A DNA stretch of 12,807 bases from a virus. The notes under the pieces were generated by a model. That model searched no databases. It worked only from the letters and a program-made list of their open reading frames with translations, and was not told the origin of the DNA. Numbering within the stretch: the first letter of the stretch is position 1; each line of letters begins with the position of its first letter. Location: UHGV virus genome UHGV-1674620; one strand, 5' to 3'. A program made the translations under genes and the position numbers. Positions 1,257 to 10,089 of the stretch are shown here, piece by piece.

Positions 1257-1628
1257 CTATATGTAACAATCAATTTCTAAAGATACCCCCAACATTGCCA
1301 GACAACCGTCAATAAACCCTTCAGCTTTCTGCAGTCTGATAACAACCTGATTAAGTGATATCCCCAGTTTTACCCCCAACACCCGTAATGTAACCCCATA
1401 CACATAATACATTTCCAGTAATTCGTATTGATACGGTTCCTTTTTCTTAAGAACTGTCATCGCAGAGCTAATGATCAAGCCATCGTCATCGCTACATTGC
1501 GGGCGGGATTTTACTTTCGAAGGAATTAATCCCTTAAAACCTGCAGCAACAGATGACCATTCCACATCCTCGTGATTATTTGCCACCCATGCCCCCCAAC
1601 GTTCAAGAACCATTTGAATATCACGCAT
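1257..1628 (-). CDS. Phage late-gene antiterminator Q (Q-like, short approx. 123-aa form resembling DLP12 QuuD)
   Basis: N-terminal MRDIQMVLERWGAWVANNHEDV...AAGFKGLI...KVKSRPQC matches my memory of short Q antiterminators of E. coli defective prophages. ATG at 1628 has GGAGA 6 nt upstream; the track start at 1643 is a TTG. Position after the nin-like genes is as expected. Confidence 0.75.
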   Translation of the reverse strand: MRDIQMVLERWGAWVANNHEDVEWSSVAAGFKGLIPSKVKSRPQCSDDDGLIISSAMTVLKKKEPYQYELLEMYYVYGVTLRVLGVKLGISLNQVVIRLQKAEGFIDGCLAMLGVSLEIDCYI

Positions 1629-1645
1629 CAACTTTCTCCACAAAA

Positions 1646-2641
1646 TCAGGCCAGCACGCCTATTGCCAGCGCACGATCGATAAAACGAAATATCAGCTCC
1701 AGCTGGGAGCCATACTTCTCTTCAAATGCCACGGTATCCGCATGCAGCTCGTCGTGATGCTTTCTGCACAAAGGCAGCACGAAGAGGTCATGCGCTTTTG
1801 TACCCATTCCCCCCTGACCGTGGCCTATCAGGTGGTGGGGATCATCAGCAGGCTTTCCACAACATGCACACGGCTGCGTCTTAACCCAGCGCGTGTACTT
1901 TTCGTTAACCCAGCGGCGACGTTTTGGGCGTAACATAAAAGACTCCGGCGACTCCGGATCCACTTTCAGCGCCAGCACCTTTTTCGCTTTATTCTGGATG
2001 ATGCTGGTGGCCGGAACCGAAGGCACAAGGTCACTCTCCCGGGTGACAGACGGCACAACAGGCTTCGGTAATCTCAGTGCCTTACGGGCTGCACTTTCCG
2101 GTAAGGCATCCGCCAGATCATTACGAACCAGCCACCAGCACAGTTCCGGCATTGTCACAACGTGACTGTCATCAAAACCGAGATCCCGACGCACAACAGA
2201 CAACACCCAGCGGGCACAGTTATCCGTTGCCATTGATTCCAGCCGTTCCGTGAACTGATCGCGCAGCTGGTTATCGCAGTGCCAGCACAGACGGATTGCG
2301 CCCGGCGCGTGTCGCATTGTGGTCATGTTCTCGCTGTGCCAGTCGGAATGAGGCCACTGGCAACCTTTTTCACGAAGTAACCAGCTTTCAAGACATTCCA
2401 CGCCACCAGCACGACGGATCACTGCCTCATTGCGGAACACGGCCCGAACGGCAGGATCATCCGCCAGCGGTTGTGATGCCGCCGGAACGGCACCACTGGC
2501 GAAAGATGAATAACGCTCCGGCTCAGGCTCCAGCAGGACACGCCCCTGCATAAACAGGGGCATCAGCTCTGAACCTGGCCTGAACAATACGATCCCCATA
2601 CGCGGGGCAATTTCAGGGGTCAGTAGTGCTCTCACAGTCAC
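1646..2641 (-). CDS. DUF968-type phage protein with C-terminal Cys/His (HNH or zinc-finger-like) motif
   Basis: C-terminal CACCGKPADDPHHLIGHGQGGMGTKAHDLFVLPLCRKHHDELH (C-x2-C, HH, C, HH-x3-H) as in nin-region DUF968 proteins of E. coli prophages (from memory). Start is GTG at 2641 or 2635; stop abuts the Q-like start. Confidence 0.65.
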   Translation of the reverse strand: MTVRALLTPEIAPRMGIVLFRPGSELMPLFMQGRVLLEPEPERYSSFASGAVPAASQPLADDPAVRAVFRNEAVIRRAGGVECLESWLLREKGCQWPHSDWHSENMTTMRHAPGAIRLCWHCDNQLRDQFTERLESMATDNCARWVLSVVRRDLGFDDSHVVTMPELCWWLVRNDLADALPESAARKALRLPKPVVPSVTRESDLVPSVPATSIIQNKAKKVLALKVDPESPESFMLRPKRRRWVNEKYTRWVKTQPCACCGKPADDPHHLIGHGQGGMGTKAHDLFVLPLCRKHHDELHADTVAFEEKYGSQLELIFRFIDRALAIGVLA

Positions 2642-2642
2642 C

Positions 2643-3458
2643 TCAATGAACGGTATCGAGCAGCTTTAACAGCTCAGGAAATCGGGATTCGAAGAAATGC
2701 GGCTGCGTCTCGCGCGGATTTGCAGGACTGGTGATGTTCTTGCCGAACATGCAGCCTTTCGCGGTCAGCGACCAGAATTTTTTGATGTTGTTAATCGCGG
2801 TACGGCTGTATCGTTCGCGTTGTTCAACGATCCCCAGCTTCGCCATCTGGTGATATGCCTGATTAGCCGTCAGGCGGATACCATACTGCTTCAGCAGTGC
2901 ACTCAGCGACAGCGTAGGGCGGCTTGAACCATCTGGCGCATCAGCAGGTGCATCAATGGCATAGATCGGCATAAGTTCAGGAAGACCAGCTACCTTTGAT
3001 AATTTCTGGTATGCACCAAGTTTCGAGGAGTTTGACAGATTTAGAGTCTTTGCTGCTGATTCAAGCAGAATGACCCCGGATTTAATTTTGTCGGATGTGG
3101 TTTCTTCTGGTGATGAATTATGAAGCGCATCAAAAGTACGTATCACTTTTAAGCTGAATGCCGGGCTGATCCACATTGCATATGCATAGACCAGCTCTTT
3201 ACAGACATACGTCCCACCATTGCGCCCCTGAATGGTGATGACAGGAATACTACGGGAATCTCCCGTAGTTTCTTCTTCCAATAATTCCACAAGAGCCTTC
3301 GTTTCAGGACGACGCATAAACTCGTGAACTTCCAGCGAACGGGAGGAGCGATTCTCACCAGCGGCAAGAAGAGCAGCTTTCTGAAGGTCGTTAAGACAGT
3401 AGTTAGATTCGAAGTACTGGCGCACAGAAACGCCATCAATTACAAGCAACTGATTCAT
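2643..3458 (-). CDS. KilA-N domain protein (antirepressor or regulator-like), about 271 aa
   Basis: N-terminal region contains GTYVCKELVYAYAMWISPAFSLKVI, the characteristic KilA-N signature (A.W.SP.F). ATG at 3458 has GGAG 6 nt upstream; the track start at 3470 is GTG. Confidence 0.7.
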   Translation of the reverse strand: MNQLLVIDGVSVRQYFESNYCLNDLQKAALLAAGENRSSRSLEVHEFMRRPETKALVELLEEETTGDSRSIPVITIQGRNGGTYVCKELVYAYAMWISPAFSLKVIRTFDALHNSSPEETTSDKIKSGVILLESAAKTLNLSNSSKLGAYQKLSKVAGLPELMPIYAIDAPADAPDGSSRPTLSLSALLKQYGIRLTANQAYHQMAKLGIVEQRERYSRTAINNIKKFWSLTAKGCMFGKNITSPANPRETQPHFFESRFPELLKLLDTVH

Positions 3459-3555
3459 TGGTTTCTCCACAAATTTTTATCCACGAGCGGGACTGCACTC
3501 CCTTTTCGTTGATGCAGGATGAACTTACTGCGATTTTTAATAGTTATCAAGGATA

Positions 3556-3575
3556 CACTGTTCATAAATACAGTA
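3556..3575. promoter_or_regulatory. Candidate LexA (SOS) box upstream of the KilA-N gene
   Basis: Plus strand cACTGTtcataaatACAGTa: perfect CTGT-N8-ACAG core with AT-rich centre and matching flanks, in the 150-bp intergenic spacer about 100 bp upstream of the KilA-N ATG. Adjacent minus-strand promoter-like hexamers are TTGATA (3550..3545), 17-bp spacer, TAAGTT (3527..3522). Confidence 0.55.
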
Positions 3576-3620
3576 TCTTTAACGAGGTAATACCCAAATT
3601 TAGGGTGTTGCTCAATTCCG

Positions 3621-4016
3621 TTACCGAGTTGCTAATTTGCAACTCGCTTTTTCGTACTTACTGATAGTGATCTCGACCTTCCCTTCCGGGATAACCGGTC
3701 CCCACTCCACCAGCATTCTTTTCACCTGGCTGTCGTCTTCCCACACACCCGCGTGGGTCAGGGCGTCAAACAGCGCCTTGTTATAGTTGTCCAGATCGCG
3801 GATCCGGTTATCCGGAGGAAACAACACGATCTCCACTGAAGCAGGTGCCGACGTTGGTTTCGGCAGACGACGTAACTGCTCAACTATTGCTGCACACGCC
3901 GCGCTCTGGAATTTTCGCCCCGCCGCGCTTATCAGGCTCTTACCAGCAAACGCCCCTTTGTTGGGGTGTCGCCAGTACGTGTTCACGCTGGGCGGAAAAG
4001 GCAGTATTAGCTTCAT
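3621..4016 (-). CDS. rusA: Crossover junction endodeoxyribonuclease RusA (Holliday junction resolvase)
   Basis: 131 aa; N-terminal MKLILPFPPSVNTYWRH and ...RDLDNYNKALFDALTHAGVWEDDSQV... match the RusA family (compare DLP12 RusA LPWPPSNNRYY...[27 protein letters not shown], from memory). Start overlaps the upstream stop by 4 nt. Confidence 0.85.
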   Translation of the reverse strand: MKLILPFPPSVNTYWRHPNKGAFAGKSLISAAGRKFQSAACAAIVEQLRRLPKPTSAPASVEIVLFPPDNRIRDLDNYNKALFDALTHAGVWEDDSQVKRMLVEWGPVIPEGKVEITISKYEKASCKLATR

Positions 4017-4666
4017 GCCACCATCTCCCTGACCAGTTTTTCCGCCTGCTGGCGAACCTGCGCCAGAAATGCCTCACCACATGCCTCAAGTTCATCGCGC
4101 CCGATGTAGCTGATTGCCGGTCCCTTCCAGGTCTTGTCGAAAACAGCAATAGCACCAGCGAAGAAAGCACCTGTTGGCACCTGCTTTTCGTCTTTCGGGA
4201 TAAACCAGGCAGGCAGTTCAAAACCAATACGCCCGCGAATAAAAGCAATATGATCTGCATCTTCCGGCCACCACACTTCGCTGGTGGCAGCTTTGATCAG
4301 GAAAACATAGCGCCCGCCTTTATCACGCATGGCAGTGGCATGCTTCATGATGTAACGCATGCCGGTGATGTATTGCCCCTCATGCTGACTGGCGCGGCTG
4401 TACGGGGGATTGCCAAAGGCAGCACCTTTAAGCTCCGCAAGACGTTCTGACCAGTCATGCGCCAGCGCGTTGTCTTCCGCCGTGTAATACGCGGCACATT
4501 TGGCGTTATCACCGTCAGTGAACAGATCCAGAACAAACGGACCAAACAAGGTGTTAATTCCCCAGAAAATGTTATCCGGCGTGCGCCACTGATCTCCCAC
4601 TTCCTTCAGTTCATGGGCTGGTTTATTCCGCAGTTCCACCAGCGCCTGGCAATATTTATTACTCAT
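4013..4666 (-). CDS. Phage DNA N6-adenine methyltransferase (Dam-family orphan methyltransferase)
   Basis: 217 aa with the catalytic (D/N)PPY motif in GAAFGNPPYS; size and position after the replication gene are typical of lambdoid orphan MTases. ATG at 4666 is preceded by GGGGG. Confidence 0.8.
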   Translation of the reverse strand: MSNKYCQALVELRNKPAHELKEVGDQWRTPDNIFWGINTLFGPFVLDLFTDGDNAKCAAYYTAEDNALAHDWSERLAELKGAAFGNPPYSRASQHEGQYITGMRYIMKHATAMRDKGGRYVFLIKAATSEVWWPEDADHIAFIRGRIGFELPAWFIPKDEKQVPTGAFFAGAIAVFDKTWKGPAISYIGRDELEACGEAFLAQVRQQAEKLVREMVA

Positions 4667-6040: not shown

Positions 6041-6261
6041 GCCACACCTCCCAGACGCTTAAACATTTTTCCGGAGCAAAAGGCTATAAGCGGCATACTG
6101 ATGCGGTAATTACGGCCCAGCGGTTCACAAATCACCTTCTGACATTCACGGTCAACCAGGCTGACACGTAGAACATGCCCTGCAGGCGTGGTGTACCACT
6201 GACCAGGACGAGGACAACGGAAAGTCTGATTGGTAAACCGTTTGAAAATATTCCGGATCAT
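6037..6261 (-). CDS. Hypothetical phage protein, 74 aa, four Cys
   Basis: Track ORF; ATG at 6261 overlaps the Rha-ORF stop (ATGA) and is preceded by a G-rich Shine-Dalgarno; its stop overlaps the next gene's GTG. Confidence 0.4.
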   Translation of the reverse strand: MIRNIFKRFTNQTFRCPRPGQWYTTPAGHVLRVSLVDRECQKVICEPLGRNYRISMPLIAFCSGKMFKRLGGVA

Positions 6262-7406
6262 TTGCGCCCCCTTACCTCTGAAGGGTTCAGCGACAAATTT
6301 ATGAGACTGGCCAGTAGCGCCGCGTCGTTGATGCGGTCATACAGACTTACAGCCAGCGGTGATTCGGCTTTTGCCAACATGGGATAAAGCTGCTGCAGCC
6401 AGACCTGATGAATTGATGAAATGTAGGAATAGAGAACGCTGGCGTTATGTGCAACGTCGCTCAGTACAGAGGGATTTGAAAGCTGTTTCTCCATCTGGTT
6501 AAAGGCATTGATGTATGCCTCTTTGAACTGGGCAGCACGTTTACCCGTGAAACCCATAGCAAGAAACGCAAAGCCGTCGCGGGTTATTTGATAGCAAGGT
6601 AGTTTGCGGCCTGTGCAATCGGTGTAATCACTCACCGAAAAATTGCGGGAAGTGAATGATGCAGAGCATTCAAGCGTGCGGATCTTTTTCAGTACATCGT
6701 CATGACGTTTGGAGAAGAAGTTGGCAACAGCCAGGGATGAAGTAACAGCCTGACCATCAACGATGGCAATTTCAGGTTGAGTGAGGGTTGGGATCGTAGC
6801 CATGATGGCAGCCTCCGTTGACTGTGGAAAACTTCCACCACCGGAGCTGCGAAACTCACTGGTGGCAGACTGAACAGGGTTCGCAGTACCGGCGTCAACG
6901 GAGACCGGCGAGCCTTTCGGCTCCCCTGCCCAGCCCACCATAATTCTGGCGTGCGTGAGCGCGGACGATAAAAAAGACGCTGGCGCGTCATATATCGCCG
7001 TTGACAATTCCGGGCTGCGACCCCCGGCACCCGCTTTATAAGGTGCCTGAGCAGTGTAACGTCCCGGAATTGCAGAATCAATATGCTGGTGGTCCTTCAC
7101 ACTCAACAAAATCACGCCTGAATTTCCACAAAGGACTAAAGCACTCATGCGGGTAGTCTTTGCGAAGATAGATAACGCGCTGTGTTTCTGGCTCCCAACG
7201 AATAACATGAACATAAAGTCCTCTTCCGTCACGAAACCAGCGGTTAAGTTCCTGCACAACTCGCCCCCCACAGTCAGGTAAAGTTCTCTGTGGTTACTTA
7301 CAGCCAGGTGATTTGGTAATCTGCATTCATGCCGTAACAACAGGTGTTCAGCGACGCTGACCACCAGCTGTTGCGACAAACGGTTATTTGCCGTTAAACT
7401 ATTCAT
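6258..7406 (-). CDS. Rha-family phage regulatory protein; the Rha domain is the C-terminal 181 aa (internal start at 6803), preceded by about 200 in-frame codons of unknown function
   Basis: MATIPTLTQPEIAIVDGQAVTSSLAVANFFSKRHDDVLKKIRTLEC is the characteristic Rha N-terminal signature (TSL.VA..F.KRHD.VL..I). The ATG at 6803 has GGAGG 8 nt upstream. The frame stays open upstream to an ATG at 7406 that overlaps the cII-like stop (ATGA). Confidence 0.6.
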   Translation of the reverse strand: MNSLTANNRLSQQLVVSVAEHLLLRHECRLPNHLAVSNHRELYLTVGGELCRNLTAGFVTEEDFMFMLFVGSQKHSALSIFAKTTRMSALVLCGNSGVILLSVKDHQHIDSAIPGRYTAQAPYKAGAGGRSPELSTAIYDAPASFLSSALTHARIMVGWAGEPKGSPVSVDAGTANPVQSATSEFRSSGGGSFPQSTEAAIMATIPTLTQPEIAIVDGQAVTSSLAVANFFSKRHDDVLKKIRTLECSASFTSRNFSVSDYTDCTGRKLPCYQITRDGFAFLAMGFTGKRAAQFKEAYINAFNQMEKQLSNPSVLSDVAHNASVLYSYISSIHQVWLQQLYPMLAKAESPLAVSLYDRINDAALLASLINLSLNPSEVRGRK

Positions 7407-7960
7407 GCGTTAGTTTCTCCACAACCAGAAGCAATCGACGCCACGACGCCCGGAGCTGCACACTCGCGGGCGTTACTATTTTCTGGAGCGCAGAAGATTT
7501 TGTAGACCAGTGCTGCATGCTCCTGGAGCTTCGAAATTGAGAGGTACAGCTCGTCGTTAATTGCTGTCTTCTCATGCGGTTCCACTACACCGTCTTCGAT
7601 TGCTGAACGAATCTGTCTGGAATAACTGCCGATCTGTTCAATGACTTCCAGCAGACGCTGGTTAATATCGGCGTTGTCCACATCCTCGACGTCAGGAAGA
7701 GACACAAAGACGCCATTTGCAGACTGCGCCACAGCGTCAGCAATGAAGTGAGTTCCACCAGCACGTTGTAAAATCATTGCCCATCCCAGCGGGAAAATCT
7801 GATCGCCATCGGCACGAAGGCGATTGAATAAAGCGTTCTCTGTTACATCCAGCCACTCAGCAGCTTCAGCGTAACCCCCCGGCAATGCCGCGATAGTTTT
7901 TCTGACAGCTTTCACGTACCACTCAGGTTGTTTTTCCACTTTCCAATGATGCTTACCCAC
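7403..7960 (-). CDS. CII-like phage regulatory protein (CP76-type), 185 aa
   Basis: Immediately downstream of cro, overlapping it by 8 nt; GTG start with AGGAGG 6 nt upstream. Weak resemblance by memory to the phage regulatory protein CII (CP76) family, which occupies this position in E. coli prophages. Confidence 0.5.
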   Translation of the reverse strand: MGKHHWKVEKQPEWYVKAVRKTIAALPGGYAEAAEWLDVTENALFNRLRADGDQIFPLGWAMILQRAGGTHFIADAVAQSANGVFVSLPDVEDVDNADINQRLLEVIEQIGSYSRQIRSAIEDGVVEPHEKTAINDELYLSISKLQEHAALVYKIFCAPENSNARECAAPGVVASIASGCGETNA

Positions 7961-8213
7961 GGCTTACCTCCTGTTCCTGTGGTTTAAACCCATTCTGGTT
8001 TTGGCTAGATTGAAAACGTGCCGGATAAAGAATCTGCATTTCGCTGATTTCACCCTTAAAAAAATTGGCCAGACGTTCTGCAAGGTCGATAGATGGAATT
8101 TGTTCCAGTCTTTCAATACGACTCAGCGTCGCTGGATTGACCTGAACGCCCGCAGCAACATGCTGCAAAGTAAATCCGTGCGCCTTACGCACATTCCGTA
8201 ATGGTGATTGCAT
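7953..8213 (-). CDS. Cro-like HTH repressor
   Basis: 86 aa with helix-turn-helix GFTLQHVAAGVQVNPATLSRIE; divergently transcribed from the cI-like gene across a 97-bp operator region; GGAGG upstream of the ATG. Confidence 0.75.
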   Translation of the reverse strand: MQSPLRNVRKAHGFTLQHVAAGVQVNPATLSRIERLEQIPSIDLAERLANFFKGEISEMQILYPARFQSSQNQNGFKPQEQEVSRG

Positions 8214-8310: not shown

Positions 8311-9003
8311 ATGAACATAGGAAATCGAGTCAGACAACTTCGCCAGGCGAAGAACATGAAAATCGCCGATCTCGCTGAAGCAATAGGAGTGGATGCGGCG
8401 AATATCTCGCGCCTCGAAACAGGTAAGCAGAAACAATTCACTGAACAAGCCCTGAGTAATATTGCCAGGAGCTTAGGTGTTGATATTGCTGATCTCTTTA
8501 CCTCAGACCTCAAAAGTAATACTGTATGTAAAAACAGTATTAGTGAGGATGTTGCGCAGGTGAAGGATGTATTCCGTATTGAAATGCTGGATGTCAGTGC
8601 CAGTGCGGGAAATGGCCTTATCCAGGGCGGTGATGTCATTGATGTGATTCATGCCATTGAATACAGAACTGATAATGCTGTATCGATGTTTGGTGGACGA
8701 CCAGCAAATCACATTAAAGTTATCAACGTTCGTGGGGACAGTATGTGTCCAACCATTGAGCCAGGAGATCTCATCTTCGTTGATATCAGTATCAATCAGT
8801 TTGATGGGGATGGTATATATGTATTTGGTTTTGATGATAAAATTTACGTCAAACGACTGCAAATGATACCTGATAAACTGCTGGTAATTTCTGATAATCA
8901 GATTTACCGCGAATGGGGAATTACCAGCGAAAACGAACATCGGTTTATGGTCTTTGGAAAGGTCTTAATCAGTCAGTCACAAACCCTTAAGCGACACAAT
9001 TAA
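8311..9003 (+). CDS. CI-like prophage repressor (N-terminal XRE-type HTH, C-terminal S24 LexA-like autopeptidase domain)
   Basis: 230 aa; HTH MKIADLAEAIGVDAANISRLETGKQ; S24 motifs VRGDSMCPTIEPGDLIFVD (Ser) and IYVKRLQ (Lys), with a candidate Ala-Gly cleavage site in DVSASAGNG; divergent from cro. Confidence 0.9.
   Translation: MNIGNRVRQLRQAKNMKIADLAEAIGVDAANISRLETGKQKQFTEQALSNIARSLGVDIADLFTSDLKSNTVCKNSISEDVAQVKDVFRIEMLDVSASAGNGLIQGGDVIDVIHAIEYRTDNAVSMFGGRPANHIKVINVRGDSMCPTIEPGDLIFVDISINQFDGDGIYVFGFDDKIYVKRLQMIPDKLLVISDNQIYREWGITSENEHRFMVFGKVLISQSQTLKRHN
8520..8539. promoter_or_regulatory. Candidate LexA (SOS) box inside the cI coding sequence (linker between HTH and S24 domains)
   Basis: TACTGTATGTAAAAACAGTA: 20-mer with perfect TACTGT-N8-ACAGTA architecture (12 fixed positions matching the consensus TACTGT(AT)4ACAGTA); encodes NTVCKNS of CI. 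Confidence 0.45.
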
Positions 9004-9590: not shown

Positions 9591-9677
9591 CAAAACAGAG
9601 AAGAGCATCACCGGACGACGGGCTCATAACCCAATCCATCCGGGCGGCTGCCACCGCAGGTGTTCTTCTCTGTTTTG
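9591..9677. repeat. Perfect 14-bp inverted repeat (extendable to 17 bp with one G-U) flanking a 59-bp GC-rich spacer, upstream of the early-left operon
   Basis: CAAAACAGAGAAGA (9591..9604) and its exact reverse complement TCTTCTCTGTTTTG (9664..9677). Confidence 0.6.
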
Positions 9678-9726
9678 TGGAGAAACCAACCGACCTTGCA
9701 GGGTCGATATGATGAGGAGCAGCAAA

Positions 9727-10089
9727 ATGGCTAGCGTACGCAGTACTGATGTGCAGGTATTTATCGTAGAACTGGACGGCGGCGTATTTGAAACCAAACT
9801 CGGCGCAGTTCTCAGTGAAGTCGCTTCCGGTGTGATGAACACGAAAAACAAAGGTAAAGTCTCGGTCAATCTGGACATCGAACCGTTTGATGAGAACCGT
9901 GTGAAAATCAAACACAAACTCTCATATGTTCGCCCGACTAACCGCGGGAAAATTTCCGAAGAAGACACCACCGAAACGCCGATGTATGTCAATCGCGGTG
10001 GTCGCCTGACTATTCTGCAGGAAGACCAGGGACAATTACTGACTCTTGCCGGTGAACCTGACGGAAAACTCCGCGCAGCAGGTCATTAA
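9727..10089 (+). CDS. Hypothetical phage protein, 120 aa, first gene of the early-left operon (possibly YfdP-like)
   Basis: ATG at 9727 has GAGGAG about 9 nt upstream; the track ORF start at 9541 would run through the terminator hairpin and is rejected. The YfdP resemblance is from memory of the CPS-53 gene order and size only. Confidence 0.55.
   Translation: MASVRSTDVQVFIVELDGGVFETKLGAVLSEVASGVMNTKNKGKVSVNLDIEPFDENRVKIKHKLSYVRPTNRGKISEEDTTETPMYVNRGGRLTILQEDQGQLLTLAGEPDGKLRAAGH

What the first reader, a model, noticed from the sequence alone, without database searches (positions are those of the whole stretch)
3471..3620. LexA box in front of the KilA-N gene suggests an SOS-controlled antirepressor-type circuit
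A near-consensus SOS box (cACTGTtcataaatACAGTa, 3556..3575) lies in the only sizeable intergenic gap of the nin-like region, next to promoter-like hexamers facing the KilA-N gene. LexA-repressed antirepressors are established for Gifsy prophages and coliphage 186 (Tum). Here the repressor also carries an S24 autocleavage domain, so the prophage may have two SOS inputs. A perfect CTGT-N8-ACAG core is expected only about 0.2 times by chance in this window, and two occur.
Basis: partly seen in the sequence, partly recalled or inferred. Interest (0 to 1): 0.6.

Follow-up and report, generated by a model that had tools for sequence, protein, structure and literature searches.

The report
SOS box before prophage KilA-N gene
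A strong binding site for LexA, the bacterial DNA-damage repressor, sits next to a likely promoter in front of the KilA-N, DUF968 and Q genes of an E. coli lambda-like prophage, so DNA damage probably switches these genes on directly; nothing here shows that the KilA-N protein is an antirepressor.

Summary
A 20-bp LexA box (3556..3575) lies in the 162-bp gap between rusA and the KilA-N gene. It scores like the recA, sulA and dinI boxes. The window has three CTGT-N8-ACAG cores, not two (0.18 expected); two are high grade.

The box ends 5 nt upstream of the best promoter-like hexamers facing KilA-N (TTGATA-17-TAAGTT). A diverged Raoultella locus has the same geometry. LexA-like boxes recur upstream of KilA-N homologs in five genera wherever a gap exists (5 of 19 loci against 0.7% background). 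I conclude the gap most likely holds a LexA-repressed secondary promoter for the KilA-N–DUF968–Q block.

The antirepressor reading is not supported:
- Most homologs, at 53–70% identity, sit 16–21 bp behind rusA with no promoter or box.
- The gene is always paired with DUF968/HNH and usually followed by Q.
- The protein has no antirepressor domain.
- Both alleles occur with the same six or more S24 (self-cleaving) repressor types.

A rival or additional reading is a plus-strand, terminator-ended structured RNA beside the box.

Seen in passing:
- A near-consensus LexA box conserved inside the repressor gene.
- A recurrent hairpin with a TGCAG loop just upstream of ribosome-binding sites.

The parts
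3556..3575 (.). LexA (SOS) box: CACTGTTCATAAATACAGTA on the plus strand, TACTGTATTTATGAACAGTG on the minus strand
   Evidence: exact CTGT-N8-ACAG core and own heterology index 4.7. Retained in the four E. coli genome copies aligned and in all 41 IMG/VR copies of this allele; the gap holding it is in 186 E. coli genomes and 5 phage records.
3522..3550 (-). Promoter-like hexamers facing KilA-N: -35 TTGATA (3550..3545), 17-nt spacer, -10 TAAGTT (3527..3522). The predicted transcription start is near 3515.
   Evidence: score 10.2, above the 90th percentile of background. Raoultella L015 has the same layout (box, 5 nt, TTGAAG, 17 nt, TAATCT). The hexamers are also kept in Kluyvera L013.
3489..3502 (-). 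Leader hairpin GGGA-GTGCAG-TCCC, 31 nt upstream of the KilA-N start codon
   Evidence: A hairpin stands at this position in KilA-N homologs from many genera, including box-less ones. The stems covary. The loop is (G/T)TGCAG in most and a different loop (such as TGTACGG) in Proteus, Morganella and Providencia.
2643..3458 (-). KilA-N domain protein gene (271 aa, ATG at 3458, GGAG at 3468..3465)
   Evidence: PF04383 with E 1.3e-15 over residues 10-114, and phrog_129 'transcriptional regulator'. The C-terminal half has no Pfam match.
1646..2635 (-). DUF968/HNH-like gene, 7 nt after the KilA-N stop
   Evidence: The KilA-N then DUF968 gene order is nearly universal.
1257..1643 (-). Q-type antiterminator gene (ATG at 1628 or TTG at 1643), last gene of the block
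   Evidence: (PF06530, E 1.5e-47). Only weak terminator-like hairpins lie between KilA-N and Q.
3621..4016 (-). rusA, the gene upstream of the gap. Its last 9 codons belong to the allele-specific segment.
3586..3652 (+). Plus-strand structured segment. Hairpin 3586..3612 has 10 pairs, 3 of them G·U. Terminator-like hairpin 3625..3646 is followed by a T-run.
   Evidence: terminator-like site; z -4.5; z -5.2; minus strand z -3.0. The variants are mixed.
8311..9003 (+). CI-like repressor with an HTH and an S24 self-cleavage domain (Ala-Gly in VSASAGNG, Ser in GDSM, Lys in YVKRL)
8520..8539 (.). Second high-grade LexA box, TACTGTATGTAAAAACAGTA, inside the repressor gene (linker codons about 70-76)

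Best explanation
The 162-bp gap between rusA and the KilA-N gene belongs to one allele of this module. It carries a secondary sigma-70 promoter (TTGATA-17-TAAGTT, start near 3515) that reads into KilA-N, DUF968/HNH and probably Q. A strong LexA operator abuts the -35 hexamer on its upstream side.

Proposed mechanism:
- In an undamaged lysogen, the prophage repressor shuts off the early rightward promoter, and LexA holds this internal promoter off.
- After DNA damage, LexA is cleaved. The KilA-N–DUF968(–Q) block is then transcribed directly, independently of repressor cleavage and of read-through from the early promoter.

Shown: the box, its quality, the hexamers, the conserved geometry, the recurrence of LexA-like boxes upstream of homologs, and the gene order.

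Inferred: LexA binding, promoter activity, repression from a box centred near -50, and read-through to Q.

The function of the KilA-N protein is open. The evidence points to a DNA-binding partner of the DUF968/HNH protein in the late-early programme, not to a dedicated antirepressor.
For: - Box quality: HI 4.7, in the range of recA, sulA and dinI (calibrated). The core is 17-fold over chance in the window.
- Promoter: the best promoter-like site on the KilA-N strand scores above the 90th percentile of background, and the box ends 5 nt from its -35 hexamer.
- Comparative footprint: Raoultella L015 is diverged across the spacer yet keeps the box (HI 7.8), a 5-nt gap, TTGAAG, a 17-nt spacer, TAATCT, then CAAACGAAAC and the hairpin. 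Kluyvera L013 keeps the hexamers.
- Erwinia L035 has a LexA-like box over the -10 of a strong promoter, TTGCCA-17-TATATT.
- Recurrence: among 19 homolog loci from other genera that have no short junction to the upstream gene (18 with a 66–387 bp gap, one with no upstream ORF called), 5 have a box with HI of 10.1 or less within 200 nt upstream. Only 0.7% of background 200-nt windows do (binomial p about 2e-7).
- Loci with a 16–21 bp junction have none.
- Gene order: KilA-N is followed at short spacing by DUF968 in nearly all loci, with a recognisable Q after it in about half. No strong terminator lies between them in the window.
- Precedent: the Gifsy prophages carry a LexA-controlled operon in the same region, 1.3 kb downstream of the replication genes (PMC3121763). 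The antQ transcript of Gifsy-1 starts 1.6 kb upstream of antQ (PMC4825925).
Against: - The tool's strict promoter scan finds no promoter in the gap. The -10 hexamer TAAGTT matches only 3 of 6 positions.
- With that promoter the box spans about -60 to -41. It lies upstream of the -35 hexamer rather than over the -35, the -10 or the start, which is the usual place for LexA repression.
- The box is decayed in several relatives that keep the gap (L013, L212, L213), so LexA control is dispensable.
- Sequence variation among the E. coli copies is too low to show selection on the box itself.
- Weak terminator-like hairpins lie just before Q.
- There are no expression or binding data.
Confidence: 0.55

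Rival explanations
1. KilA-N is a LexA-repressed antirepressor. After LexA cleavage it binds and inactivates the CI-like repressor, giving a second route to induction beside repressor self-cleavage.
For: - The LexA box and promoter-like hexamers lie in front of the gene.
- An annotated 'ant' of a P22-like phage shares the KilA-N domain (43% identity over residues 5-121), and the last ~90 residues match proteins annotated as Rha-like regulator or antirepressor in Ruminococcus phages.
- LexA-controlled antirepressors exist in Gifsy, 186 and N15 (PMC3121763).
- That paper also shows that antirepressors can act on non-cognate repressors.
Against: - Only a KilA-N domain is detected. The protein falls in phrog_129 'transcriptional regulator', has no ANT, AntA or Bro match, no match to solved structures, and no family for the C-terminal half.
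- Most homologs are promoterless members of the early operon, 16–21 bp after rusA.
- The pairing with DUF968/HNH is nearly invariable.
- The same S24 repressor types occur with both alleles, and at least six repressor types occur with the box-bearing allele.
- The repressor is self-cleaving, so an antirepressor is not needed.
- In Fels-1, a prophage with a cleavable repressor, the antirepressor plays no apparent role in induction (PMC3121763 abstract).
Confidence: 0.12
2. The box controls, alone or in addition, a plus-strand small RNA of roughly 70–110 nt. This RNA would start at or just upstream of the box and end at the intrinsic terminator at 3625..3652. It would be antisense to the rusA 3' end and to the rusA–KilA-N junction of the early transcript. 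The gap would then be an inserted, self-contained transcription unit in reverse orientation.
For: - A terminator-like hairpin with a T-run exists on the plus strand only.
- Plus-strand RNA 3540..3660 folds at -35.3 kcal/mol with z -4.5, and 3578..3655 at z -5.2. The minus strand gives z -3.0.
- Hairpin 3586..3612 has three G·U pairs that would be A·C mismatches on the other strand.
- Four of seven substitutions in E. coli variants keep plus-strand pairing through G·U or U-A.
- Plus-strand promoter-like sites exist: TTGATG-17-GATTTT (with TG, score 8.2) upstream of the box, and TTATCA-19-TACAGT with its -10 inside the box.
- The last codons of rusA are encoded by this allele-specific segment.
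Against: - The plus-strand promoter candidates are mediocre, with a 19-nt spacer or a 3-of-6 -10 hexamer.
- Three of seven substitutions break pairs, and one copy weakens the T-run.
- The segment occurs only in the E. coli and Shigella allele. The feature common to all box-bearing loci in other genera is the KilA-N gene.
- There is no Rfam match.
- Part of the hairpin is coding sequence.
Confidence: 0.2
3. The box binds LexA, or once did, but has no regulatory consequence here. It would be a relic carried along at a mosaic junction, and KilA-N would be expressed only from the early rightward promoter.
For: - The box lies upstream of the -35 hexamer, an unusual place for a repressor.
- Relatives with the same gap have decayed boxes (L013, L212, L213).
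- The same repressor types are found with box-less alleles.
Against: - The site is near-consensus and unchanged in all copies of the allele that were read (4 genome copies, 41 IMG/VR copies), and one variant moves it closer to consensus.
- LexA-like boxes recur upstream of this gene in five other genera, far above background.
- The box-to-promoter spacing is conserved in a diverged locus.
Confidence: 0.12

Closest known systems
Gifsy-1/-2/-3 LexA-controlled dinI–antirepressor operon (gfoA, gftA) of Salmonella (Lemire et al. 2011, PMC3121763)
   Same: - A LexA box in the nin-like region of a lambdoid prophage, downstream of the replication genes and upstream of Q.
- The box is preceded by a terminator-like palindrome.
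- It gives a LexA-gated transcription unit inside the early right operon.
   Different: - Gifsy repressors are short and non-cleavable, and they need the antirepressor. Here the repressor has a full S24 domain.
- The gene behind the box encodes a 271-aa KilA-N protein paired with DUF968/HNH, not a dinI homolog plus a small antirepressor.
- There is no DNA similarity.
Coliphage 186 Tum and N15 AntC (LexA-repressed antirepressors; from established knowledge, cited in PMC3121763)
   Same: Host LexA directly represses a prophage gene that acts in induction.
   Different: - In those phages the antirepressor is the only SOS input.
- No sequence or domain relation to the KilA-N protein was found.
- The function is not shown here.
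P1 KilA and the KilA-N domain family (PF04383)
   Same: The N-terminal KilA-N DNA-binding domain (37% identity to P1 and P7 KilA over residues 4-109; Pfam E 1.3e-15).
   Different: - The C-terminal half is different.
- The genomic context is different.
- I know of no LexA control for P1 kilA.
Gifsy-1 IsrK–orf45–AnrP–AntQ circuit (Hershko-Shalev et al. 2016, PMC4825925)
   Same: - A prophage regulator gene next to Q whose expression raises Q.
- It has a structured RNA leader and control at the level of translation.
   Different: - The gene order and orientation differ.
- Control is by an sRNA, not by LexA.
- No homology was tested.
Chromosomal SOS promoters with one LexA box (recA, sulA, uvrA/ssb)
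   Same: The box sequence class and strength. uvrA/ssb shows that one box can serve divergent promoters (established knowledge).
   Different: Here the box abuts the -35 hexamer from upstream rather than overlapping the core promoter elements.

Membership tests
E. coli-type LexA (SOS) box | Palindrome CTGT-N8-ACAG with an AT-rich spacer, close to TACTGTATATATATACAGTA | tested here: met
   exact core. 15 of 20 positions match the consensus on the plus strand.
E. coli-type LexA (SOS) box | Heterology index in the range of sites that bind LexA (published functional sites run from about 1.8 to 13) | tested here: met
   4.7, with a matrix built from recalled sites. The matrix's leave-one-out values agree with published HI values.
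E. coli-type LexA (SOS) box | The operator overlaps or adjoins a promoter so that LexA can block RNA polymerase | tested here: inconclusive
   the box ends 5 nt upstream of the -35 hexamer of the best candidate. Weaker candidates have their -10 inside the box. No transcription start data.
E. coli-type LexA (SOS) box | LexA binding, and lexA-dependent induction by DNA damage | not testable with these tools
   Needs EMSA or ChIP, and expression assays.
LexA-controlled prophage antirepressor (Tum, GfoA, AntC type) | The protein binds and inactivates the prophage repressor | not testable with these tools
LexA-controlled prophage antirepressor (Tum, GfoA, AntC type) | The cognate repressor lacks self-cleavage, so the antirepressor is the SOS sensor | tested here: not met
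   S24 domain (E 5.9e-19), Ala-Gly site, Ser and Lys motifs. All repressors found with this allele are 208–253-aa S24 types.
LexA-controlled prophage antirepressor (Tum, GfoA, AntC type) | Sequence or domain relation to a characterised antirepressor | tested here: not met
   only KilA-N and phrog_129 'transcriptional regulator'. Nothing in the PDB at E up to 1. The only links are to proteins annotated, not characterised, as antirepressors: the KilA-N domain with a phage 'ant', and the C-terminal ~90 residues with Ruminococcus phage proteins.
LexA-controlled prophage antirepressor (Tum, GfoA, AntC type) | The gene travels with a particular immunity type or is needed by it | tested here: not met
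   six or more repressor types occur with the box-bearing allele, and the same types occur with the box-less allele.
KilA-N domain protein | Match to PF04383 above the gathering score | tested here: met
   57.6 bits against a cut-off of 23.8.
Rho-independent-terminated small RNA (plus strand) | G+C-rich hairpin followed by a U-run, a stable strand-specific fold, and its own promoter | tested here: inconclusive
   the terminator and the fold are present and favour the plus strand. The promoter is weak and the variants are mixed.

The most novel reading that the evidence does not exclude
This widespread E. coli prophage family is wired to host LexA at several points, beside repressor self-cleavage.
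- A LexA-gated internal promoter would let DNA damage switch on KilA-N–DUF968–Q without passing through the immunity switch.
- A near-consensus LexA operator is kept under selection inside the repressor gene itself. This repressor type occurs in about 19% of complete E. coli genomes.
- A shared TGCAG-loop RNA hairpin in front of the ribosome-binding sites of KilA-N and other early genes would act as a common translational operator.

Together these would form a host-read control layer over early and late gene expression that has not been described for lambdoid phages.
Probability: 0.15. Interest if true: 0.75.

Novelty: new variant of a known kind. Interest (0 to 1): 0.45.

Why it matters
- If the promoter is real, DNA damage reaches the Q-proximal genes of a common E. 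coli and Shigella prophage type by a route that bypasses the CI/Cro switch. The gap is in 186 of 5426 complete E. coli genomes, including O104:H4, O157:H7, O111:H8 and S88, and in phage SfIV.
- LexA is cleaved more readily than phage repressors (established knowledge). Such a route could therefore turn on Q-dependent late genes, or a KilA-N/HNH function, at sub-inducing damage. This bears on lysis and on toxin or cargo expression under SOS-inducing antibiotics.
- It would also give a first regulatory handle on the conserved but uncharacterised KilA-N–DUF968 gene pair.
- By itself a LexA box in a prophage is not surprising. The interest is moderate.

Tried and rejected
- Strict consensus promoter scan of 3350..3750: no promoter found. 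I replaced it with a weighted scan and a background distribution.
- Rfam on 3300..3800, both strands, E up to 10: only a chance Ysr209 match.
- The third CTGT-N8-ACAG core at 7288 scores about 15, and its left half is not kept in a relative (L288). I rejected it as a LexA site.
- A sigma-54 reading of the TTGCA-containing hairpin fails on GG-to-GC spacing (by inspection).
- A nut/boxB reading of the TGCAG-loop hairpins is unlikely. There is no boxA, the loop is not GNRA-like, and there are many sites, one per gene start.
- The search for diverged homologs of the repressor in IMG/VR returned only copies at 99% identity or more. The test of the intragenic box therefore rests on 21 close variants plus one diverged copy.
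- Solved structures and Pfam gave nothing for the KilA-N C-terminal half. I did not run structure prediction, because a fold would not settle the antirepressor question.
- Literature searches found nothing specific. Terms tried: LexA with KilA-N, DUF968 with KilA-N, SfIV, intragenic SOS box in cI, and GUGCAG/UUGCAG loops.
- Small plus-strand ORFs in the gap (for example the 19-codon GTG ORF at 3605) lack a ribosome-binding site. I rejected a LexA-controlled toxic-peptide reading.

Full report
**Context.** The window is part of an E. coli lambdoid prophage. The 501 bases around the finding are 100% identical to many E. coli chromosomes, where RefSeq annotates RusA and a KilA-N domain protein. 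The gene order follows from ORFs, Pfam and RefSeq.
- Plus strand: a CI-like repressor with HTH and S24 domains (8311..9003).
- Minus strand, in order: cro-like (7953..8213), a CII/YmfL-like gene (7403..7960), a Rha/Ash regulator (6258..7406), replication genes, Dam (4013..4666), rusA (3621..4016), the gap, KilA-N (2643..3458), DUF968/HNH (1646..2635) and Q (1257..1628 or 1643).

**The observation.** The sequence CACTGTTCATAAATACAGTA is at 3556..3575. The core CTGT-N8-ACAG occurs three times, at 3558, 7288 and 8522. Shuffles give 0.18 expected, and none of 200 shuffles reaches three.

I built a heterology-index matrix from 27 E. coli LexA sites that I recalled from the literature. This is a stated limitation.
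- Its leave-one-out values agree reasonably with the published values listed in PMC11228462 Table 1. Mine against published: umuDC 1.1 against 2.1, dinI 4.9 against 4.8, sulA 4.7 against 5.4, dinB 9.2 against 9.4.
- The site at 3556 scores 4.7.
- The site at 8520 scores 2.4.
- The site at 7288 scores about 15.
- Nothing else in the window scores below 11.7.

So the box is real, strong, and not a chance event. The gap is 3459..3620 if the gene starts at ATG 3458, as in RefSeq, with GGAG at 3468..3465.

**Promoter.** The strict consensus scan finds no promoter in the gap. A weighted scan gives TTGATA (3550..3545), a 17-nt spacer, then TAAGTT (3527..3522) on the KilA-N strand. It scores 10.2, above the 90th percentile (8.6) of the best score per 250 nt across the window. 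The box ends 5 nt upstream of this -35 hexamer, so it would span about -60 to -41. This is not the usual overlap with -35, -10 or +1, and it is the main weakness of the model. Weaker candidates have their -10 inside the box (TTGGGT-16-TACTGT).

**Distribution of the gap.**
- The 162-bp gap, or a 151-bp version with an 11-bp deletion near the start codon, is in 186 of 5426 complete E. coli genomes. These include O104:H4 C227-11, S88, and O157:H7 and O111:H8 strains. It is also in phages SfIV and PhiR49_1.
- The box is unchanged in the four genome copies I aligned and in all 41 IMG/VR copies of the allele, except that one strain changes its last base toward the consensus.
- KilA-N homologs at 53–70% identity (SfII, mEp460, ST64B, PhiR40_1, Stx2c phages, a Morganella phage) follow rusA by only 16–21 bp. 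They have no LexA-like site within 400 bp; the best HI is above 19.
- The gene is therefore normally a promoterless member of the early right operon. The gap with its box and hexamers is a feature of one allele.

**Comparative support for LexA control.** I scanned one genome per species and kept 80 loci.
- Nineteen of the full-length homolog loci have no short junction to the upstream gene: 18 have a gap of 66–387 bp and one has no upstream ORF called. Five of the 19 carry a LexA-like site with HI of 10.1 or less within 200 nt upstream. They are from Raoultella, Serratia, Rosenbergiella, Edwardsiella and Erwinia.
- The same threshold is met by 0.7% of background 200-nt windows in these loci (binomial p about 2e-7). 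The loci are not fully independent, but the five box sequences differ.
- In Erwinia L035 the box lies over the -10 of a strong promoter, TTGCCA-17-TATATT, score 13.
- In Raoultella L015 the layout is colinear with the window although the spacers have diverged. It reads box, 5 nt, TTGAAG, 17 nt, TAATCT, then CAAACGAAAC and the hairpin.
- Kluyvera L013 keeps the hexamers but has lost the box. An IMG/VR relative (L212) keeps only the right half-site.

This pattern supports a real promoter with an adjoining LexA operator that is retained in some lineages and lost in others.

**What the promoter would drive.**
- KilA-N is followed at short spacing by DUF968/HNH in almost every locus from Escherichia to Proteus and Gilliamella. 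A recognisable Q gene follows in about half.
- In the window the three genes are tightly packed. Only weak terminator-like hairpins precede Q.
- The predicted start is about 1.9 kb upstream of Q.
- In the Gifsy prophages the LexA-controlled operon lies 1.3 kb downstream of the replication genes (PMC3121763). The antQ transcript of Gifsy-1 starts 1.6 kb upstream of antQ (PMC4825925).

The geometry is therefore familiar. The inferred consequence is SOS-dependent, repressor-independent expression of KilA-N, DUF968 and possibly Q.

**Is KilA-N an antirepressor?** I found no support.
- Pfam gives only KilA-N (residues 10-114). The C-terminal half matches nothing even at E 10.
- PHROGs places the whole protein in phrog_129 'transcriptional regulator'.
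- There is no match to solved structures.
- The repressor is self-cleaving by every sequence criterion.
- I could locate the immunity region in most of the 41 IMG/VR contigs that carry the box-bearing allele. In those, the repressor is one of at least six S24 types of 208–253 aa. The same types occur with the box-less allele, sometimes with an identical repressor.
- No short non-cleavable repressor was seen.

A dedicated antirepressor would be expected to track an immunity type, or to accompany repressors that cannot sense RecA. Neither holds. The possibility is not excluded, because antirepressors can act on several repressors (PMC3121763), but it is the less likely reading.

**A rival on the other strand.**
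- The plus strand between the box and rusA folds unusually well. Region 3540..3660 gives -35.3 kcal/mol, z -4.5, with no shuffle as stable. Region 3578..3655 gives z -5.2. The minus strand gives z -3.0.
- The fold has a 10-pair hairpin (3586..3612) with three G·U pairs, which would be mismatches on the other strand.
- It also has a terminator-like hairpin (3625..3646) followed by CTTTTT.
- The last nine codons of rusA are encoded by this allele-specific segment.
- Plus-strand promoter candidates exist upstream of the box and over it, but they are mediocre.
- Seven substitutions in E. coli variants split four to three for and against plus-strand pairing.

A LexA-controlled antisense small RNA is thus possible, alone or together with the KilA-N promoter. 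It is confined to the E. coli allele, whereas the feature common to all box-bearing loci is the KilA-N gene.

**The leader hairpin.**
- A hairpin stands at the same place in KilA-N homologs from many genera, including the box-less ones, where it occupies the last codons of rusA (GGCGG-GTGCAG-CCGCC-TGA).
- The stems differ (GGGC/GCCC, TCAT/ATGA, GTCAG/CTGAT and others). The loop stays (G/T)TGCAG. Proteus, Morganella and Providencia use another loop.
- Over all sequence fetched, TTGCAG is the most frequent hexaloop of hairpins with stems of 5 bp or more.
- Twenty-five of 36 unique GTGCAG or TTGCAG hairpins are followed within 18 nt by a Shine-Dalgarno motif and a start codon. The figure is 3% for other hexaloop hairpins and 0 of 25 for the reverse-complement loops (p 2e-29).
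- In the window two more copies precede genes: 9691..9706 before the gene at 9727, and 7246..7262 before the probable true start (7214) of the Rha/Ash gene.
- The pair counts on the trimmed alignment show many stem types, but those sequences were selected for pairing. The independent evidence is the link to start sites and the conserved position.

I could not identify the element. There is no Rfam or literature match. It looks like a strand-specific RNA element at translation starts.

**The second box.**
- TACTGTATGTAAAAACAGTA (8520..8539) lies inside the repressor gene, in the linker between the HTH and S24 domains.
- I compared 21 distinct variants from 118 copies. Four of the 20 box columns vary, against 34 of 60 flanking columns. 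The CTGT and ACAG cores never vary. One variant is the exact umuDC-type site (HI 0.85).
- A more diverged repressor gene keeps a box at the same place.
- This repressor type occurs in 1040 of 5426 complete E. coli genomes.
- Promoter-like hexamers with their -10 in the box exist on both strands but are unremarkable.

The role of this box is unknown.

**Verdict.**
- The thing is best described as a LexA-gated secondary promoter for the KilA-N–DUF968–Q block of one allele of a mosaic lambdoid module. It is a variant of a known kind of circuit.
- Interest is moderate. The intragenic LexA box and the hairpin motif are the less expected items.

Noticed in passing
window 8520..8539 (inside the repressor gene 8311..9003, plus strand): A near-consensus LexA box, TACTGTATGTAAAAACAGTA (HI 2.4), lies in the linker-coding part of the S24 repressor gene. 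Across 21 sequence variants the box is an island of conservation: 4 of 20 columns vary against 34 of 60 in the flanks, and the cores never vary. One variant equals the umuDC-type site. This repressor type is in 1040 of 5426 E. coli genomes. Function unknown; it could control an internal sense or antisense promoter, or act as a roadblock.
   Followed up: partly
window 3489..3502 (-), 7246..7262 (-), 9691..9706 (+), 1760..1773 (-); many fetched loci: Hairpins with the loop (G/T)TGCAG and covarying G+C-rich stems lie 5–30 nt upstream of a Shine-Dalgarno motif and start codon. They precede KilA-N, the Rha/Ash regulator, the first early-left gene, yfdR-like and rdgC-like genes, and others. 25 of 36 such hairpins precede a start site, against 3% of other hexaloop hairpins and 0 of 25 reverse complements. 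No Rfam or literature match. The loop begins like the anticodon loop of tRNA-Cys as I recall it (UUGCA; an untested remark).
   Followed up: partly
window 3586..3652 (+): A plus-strand-specific stable fold (z -4.5 to -5.2) ends in a terminator-like hairpin and a T-run, antisense to the 3' end of rusA. It may be a LexA-controlled small RNA.
   Followed up: partly
window 7288..7303: A third exact CTGT-N8-ACAG core (GGCTGTAAGTAACCACAGAG on the minus strand) scores poorly (HI about 15). It lies 25 nt upstream of the TGCAG-type hairpin that precedes the probable real start (ATG 7214) of the Rha/Ash gene. Its left half is not kept in a relative. Probably not a LexA site.
   Followed up: partly
window 6258..7406 (-): The 382-aa ORF annotated as a Rha family protein matches its PHROG family only from residue 61. 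It has a hairpin, a Shine-Dalgarno motif and an ATG at 7214. The first 64 codons may be untranslated leader or a separate small gene.
   Followed up: no
window 3458..3470 (-) and 9677..9689 (+): The 13-mer GTGGAGAAACCAA occurs twice. One copy is the ribosome-binding region and start of KilA-N. The other lies just before the early-left hairpin. It may be a shared translation-initiation context or a recombination joint.
   Followed up: no
L251 13893..13912 and equivalents in about 15 loci (about 3.9 kb downstream of the KilA-N start; beyond position 1 of the window): Another conserved high-grade LexA box (TACTGTAAAAATAAACAGTG and variants, HI 3.9–6.1) lies downstream of the Q region in related prophages. 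A further one is at L304 16872. These prophages carry several LexA boxes.
   Followed up: no
L001 10714..11040, also L002-L004 and L008-L010; absent from the window (Dam 4013..4666 abuts rusA): Many relatives carry a 108-aa gene between Dam and rusA that is annotated as 'LexA family transcriptional regulator' or 'similar to LexA'. The window lacks it, and it also lacks the PerC/YfdN-like gene.
   Followed up: no
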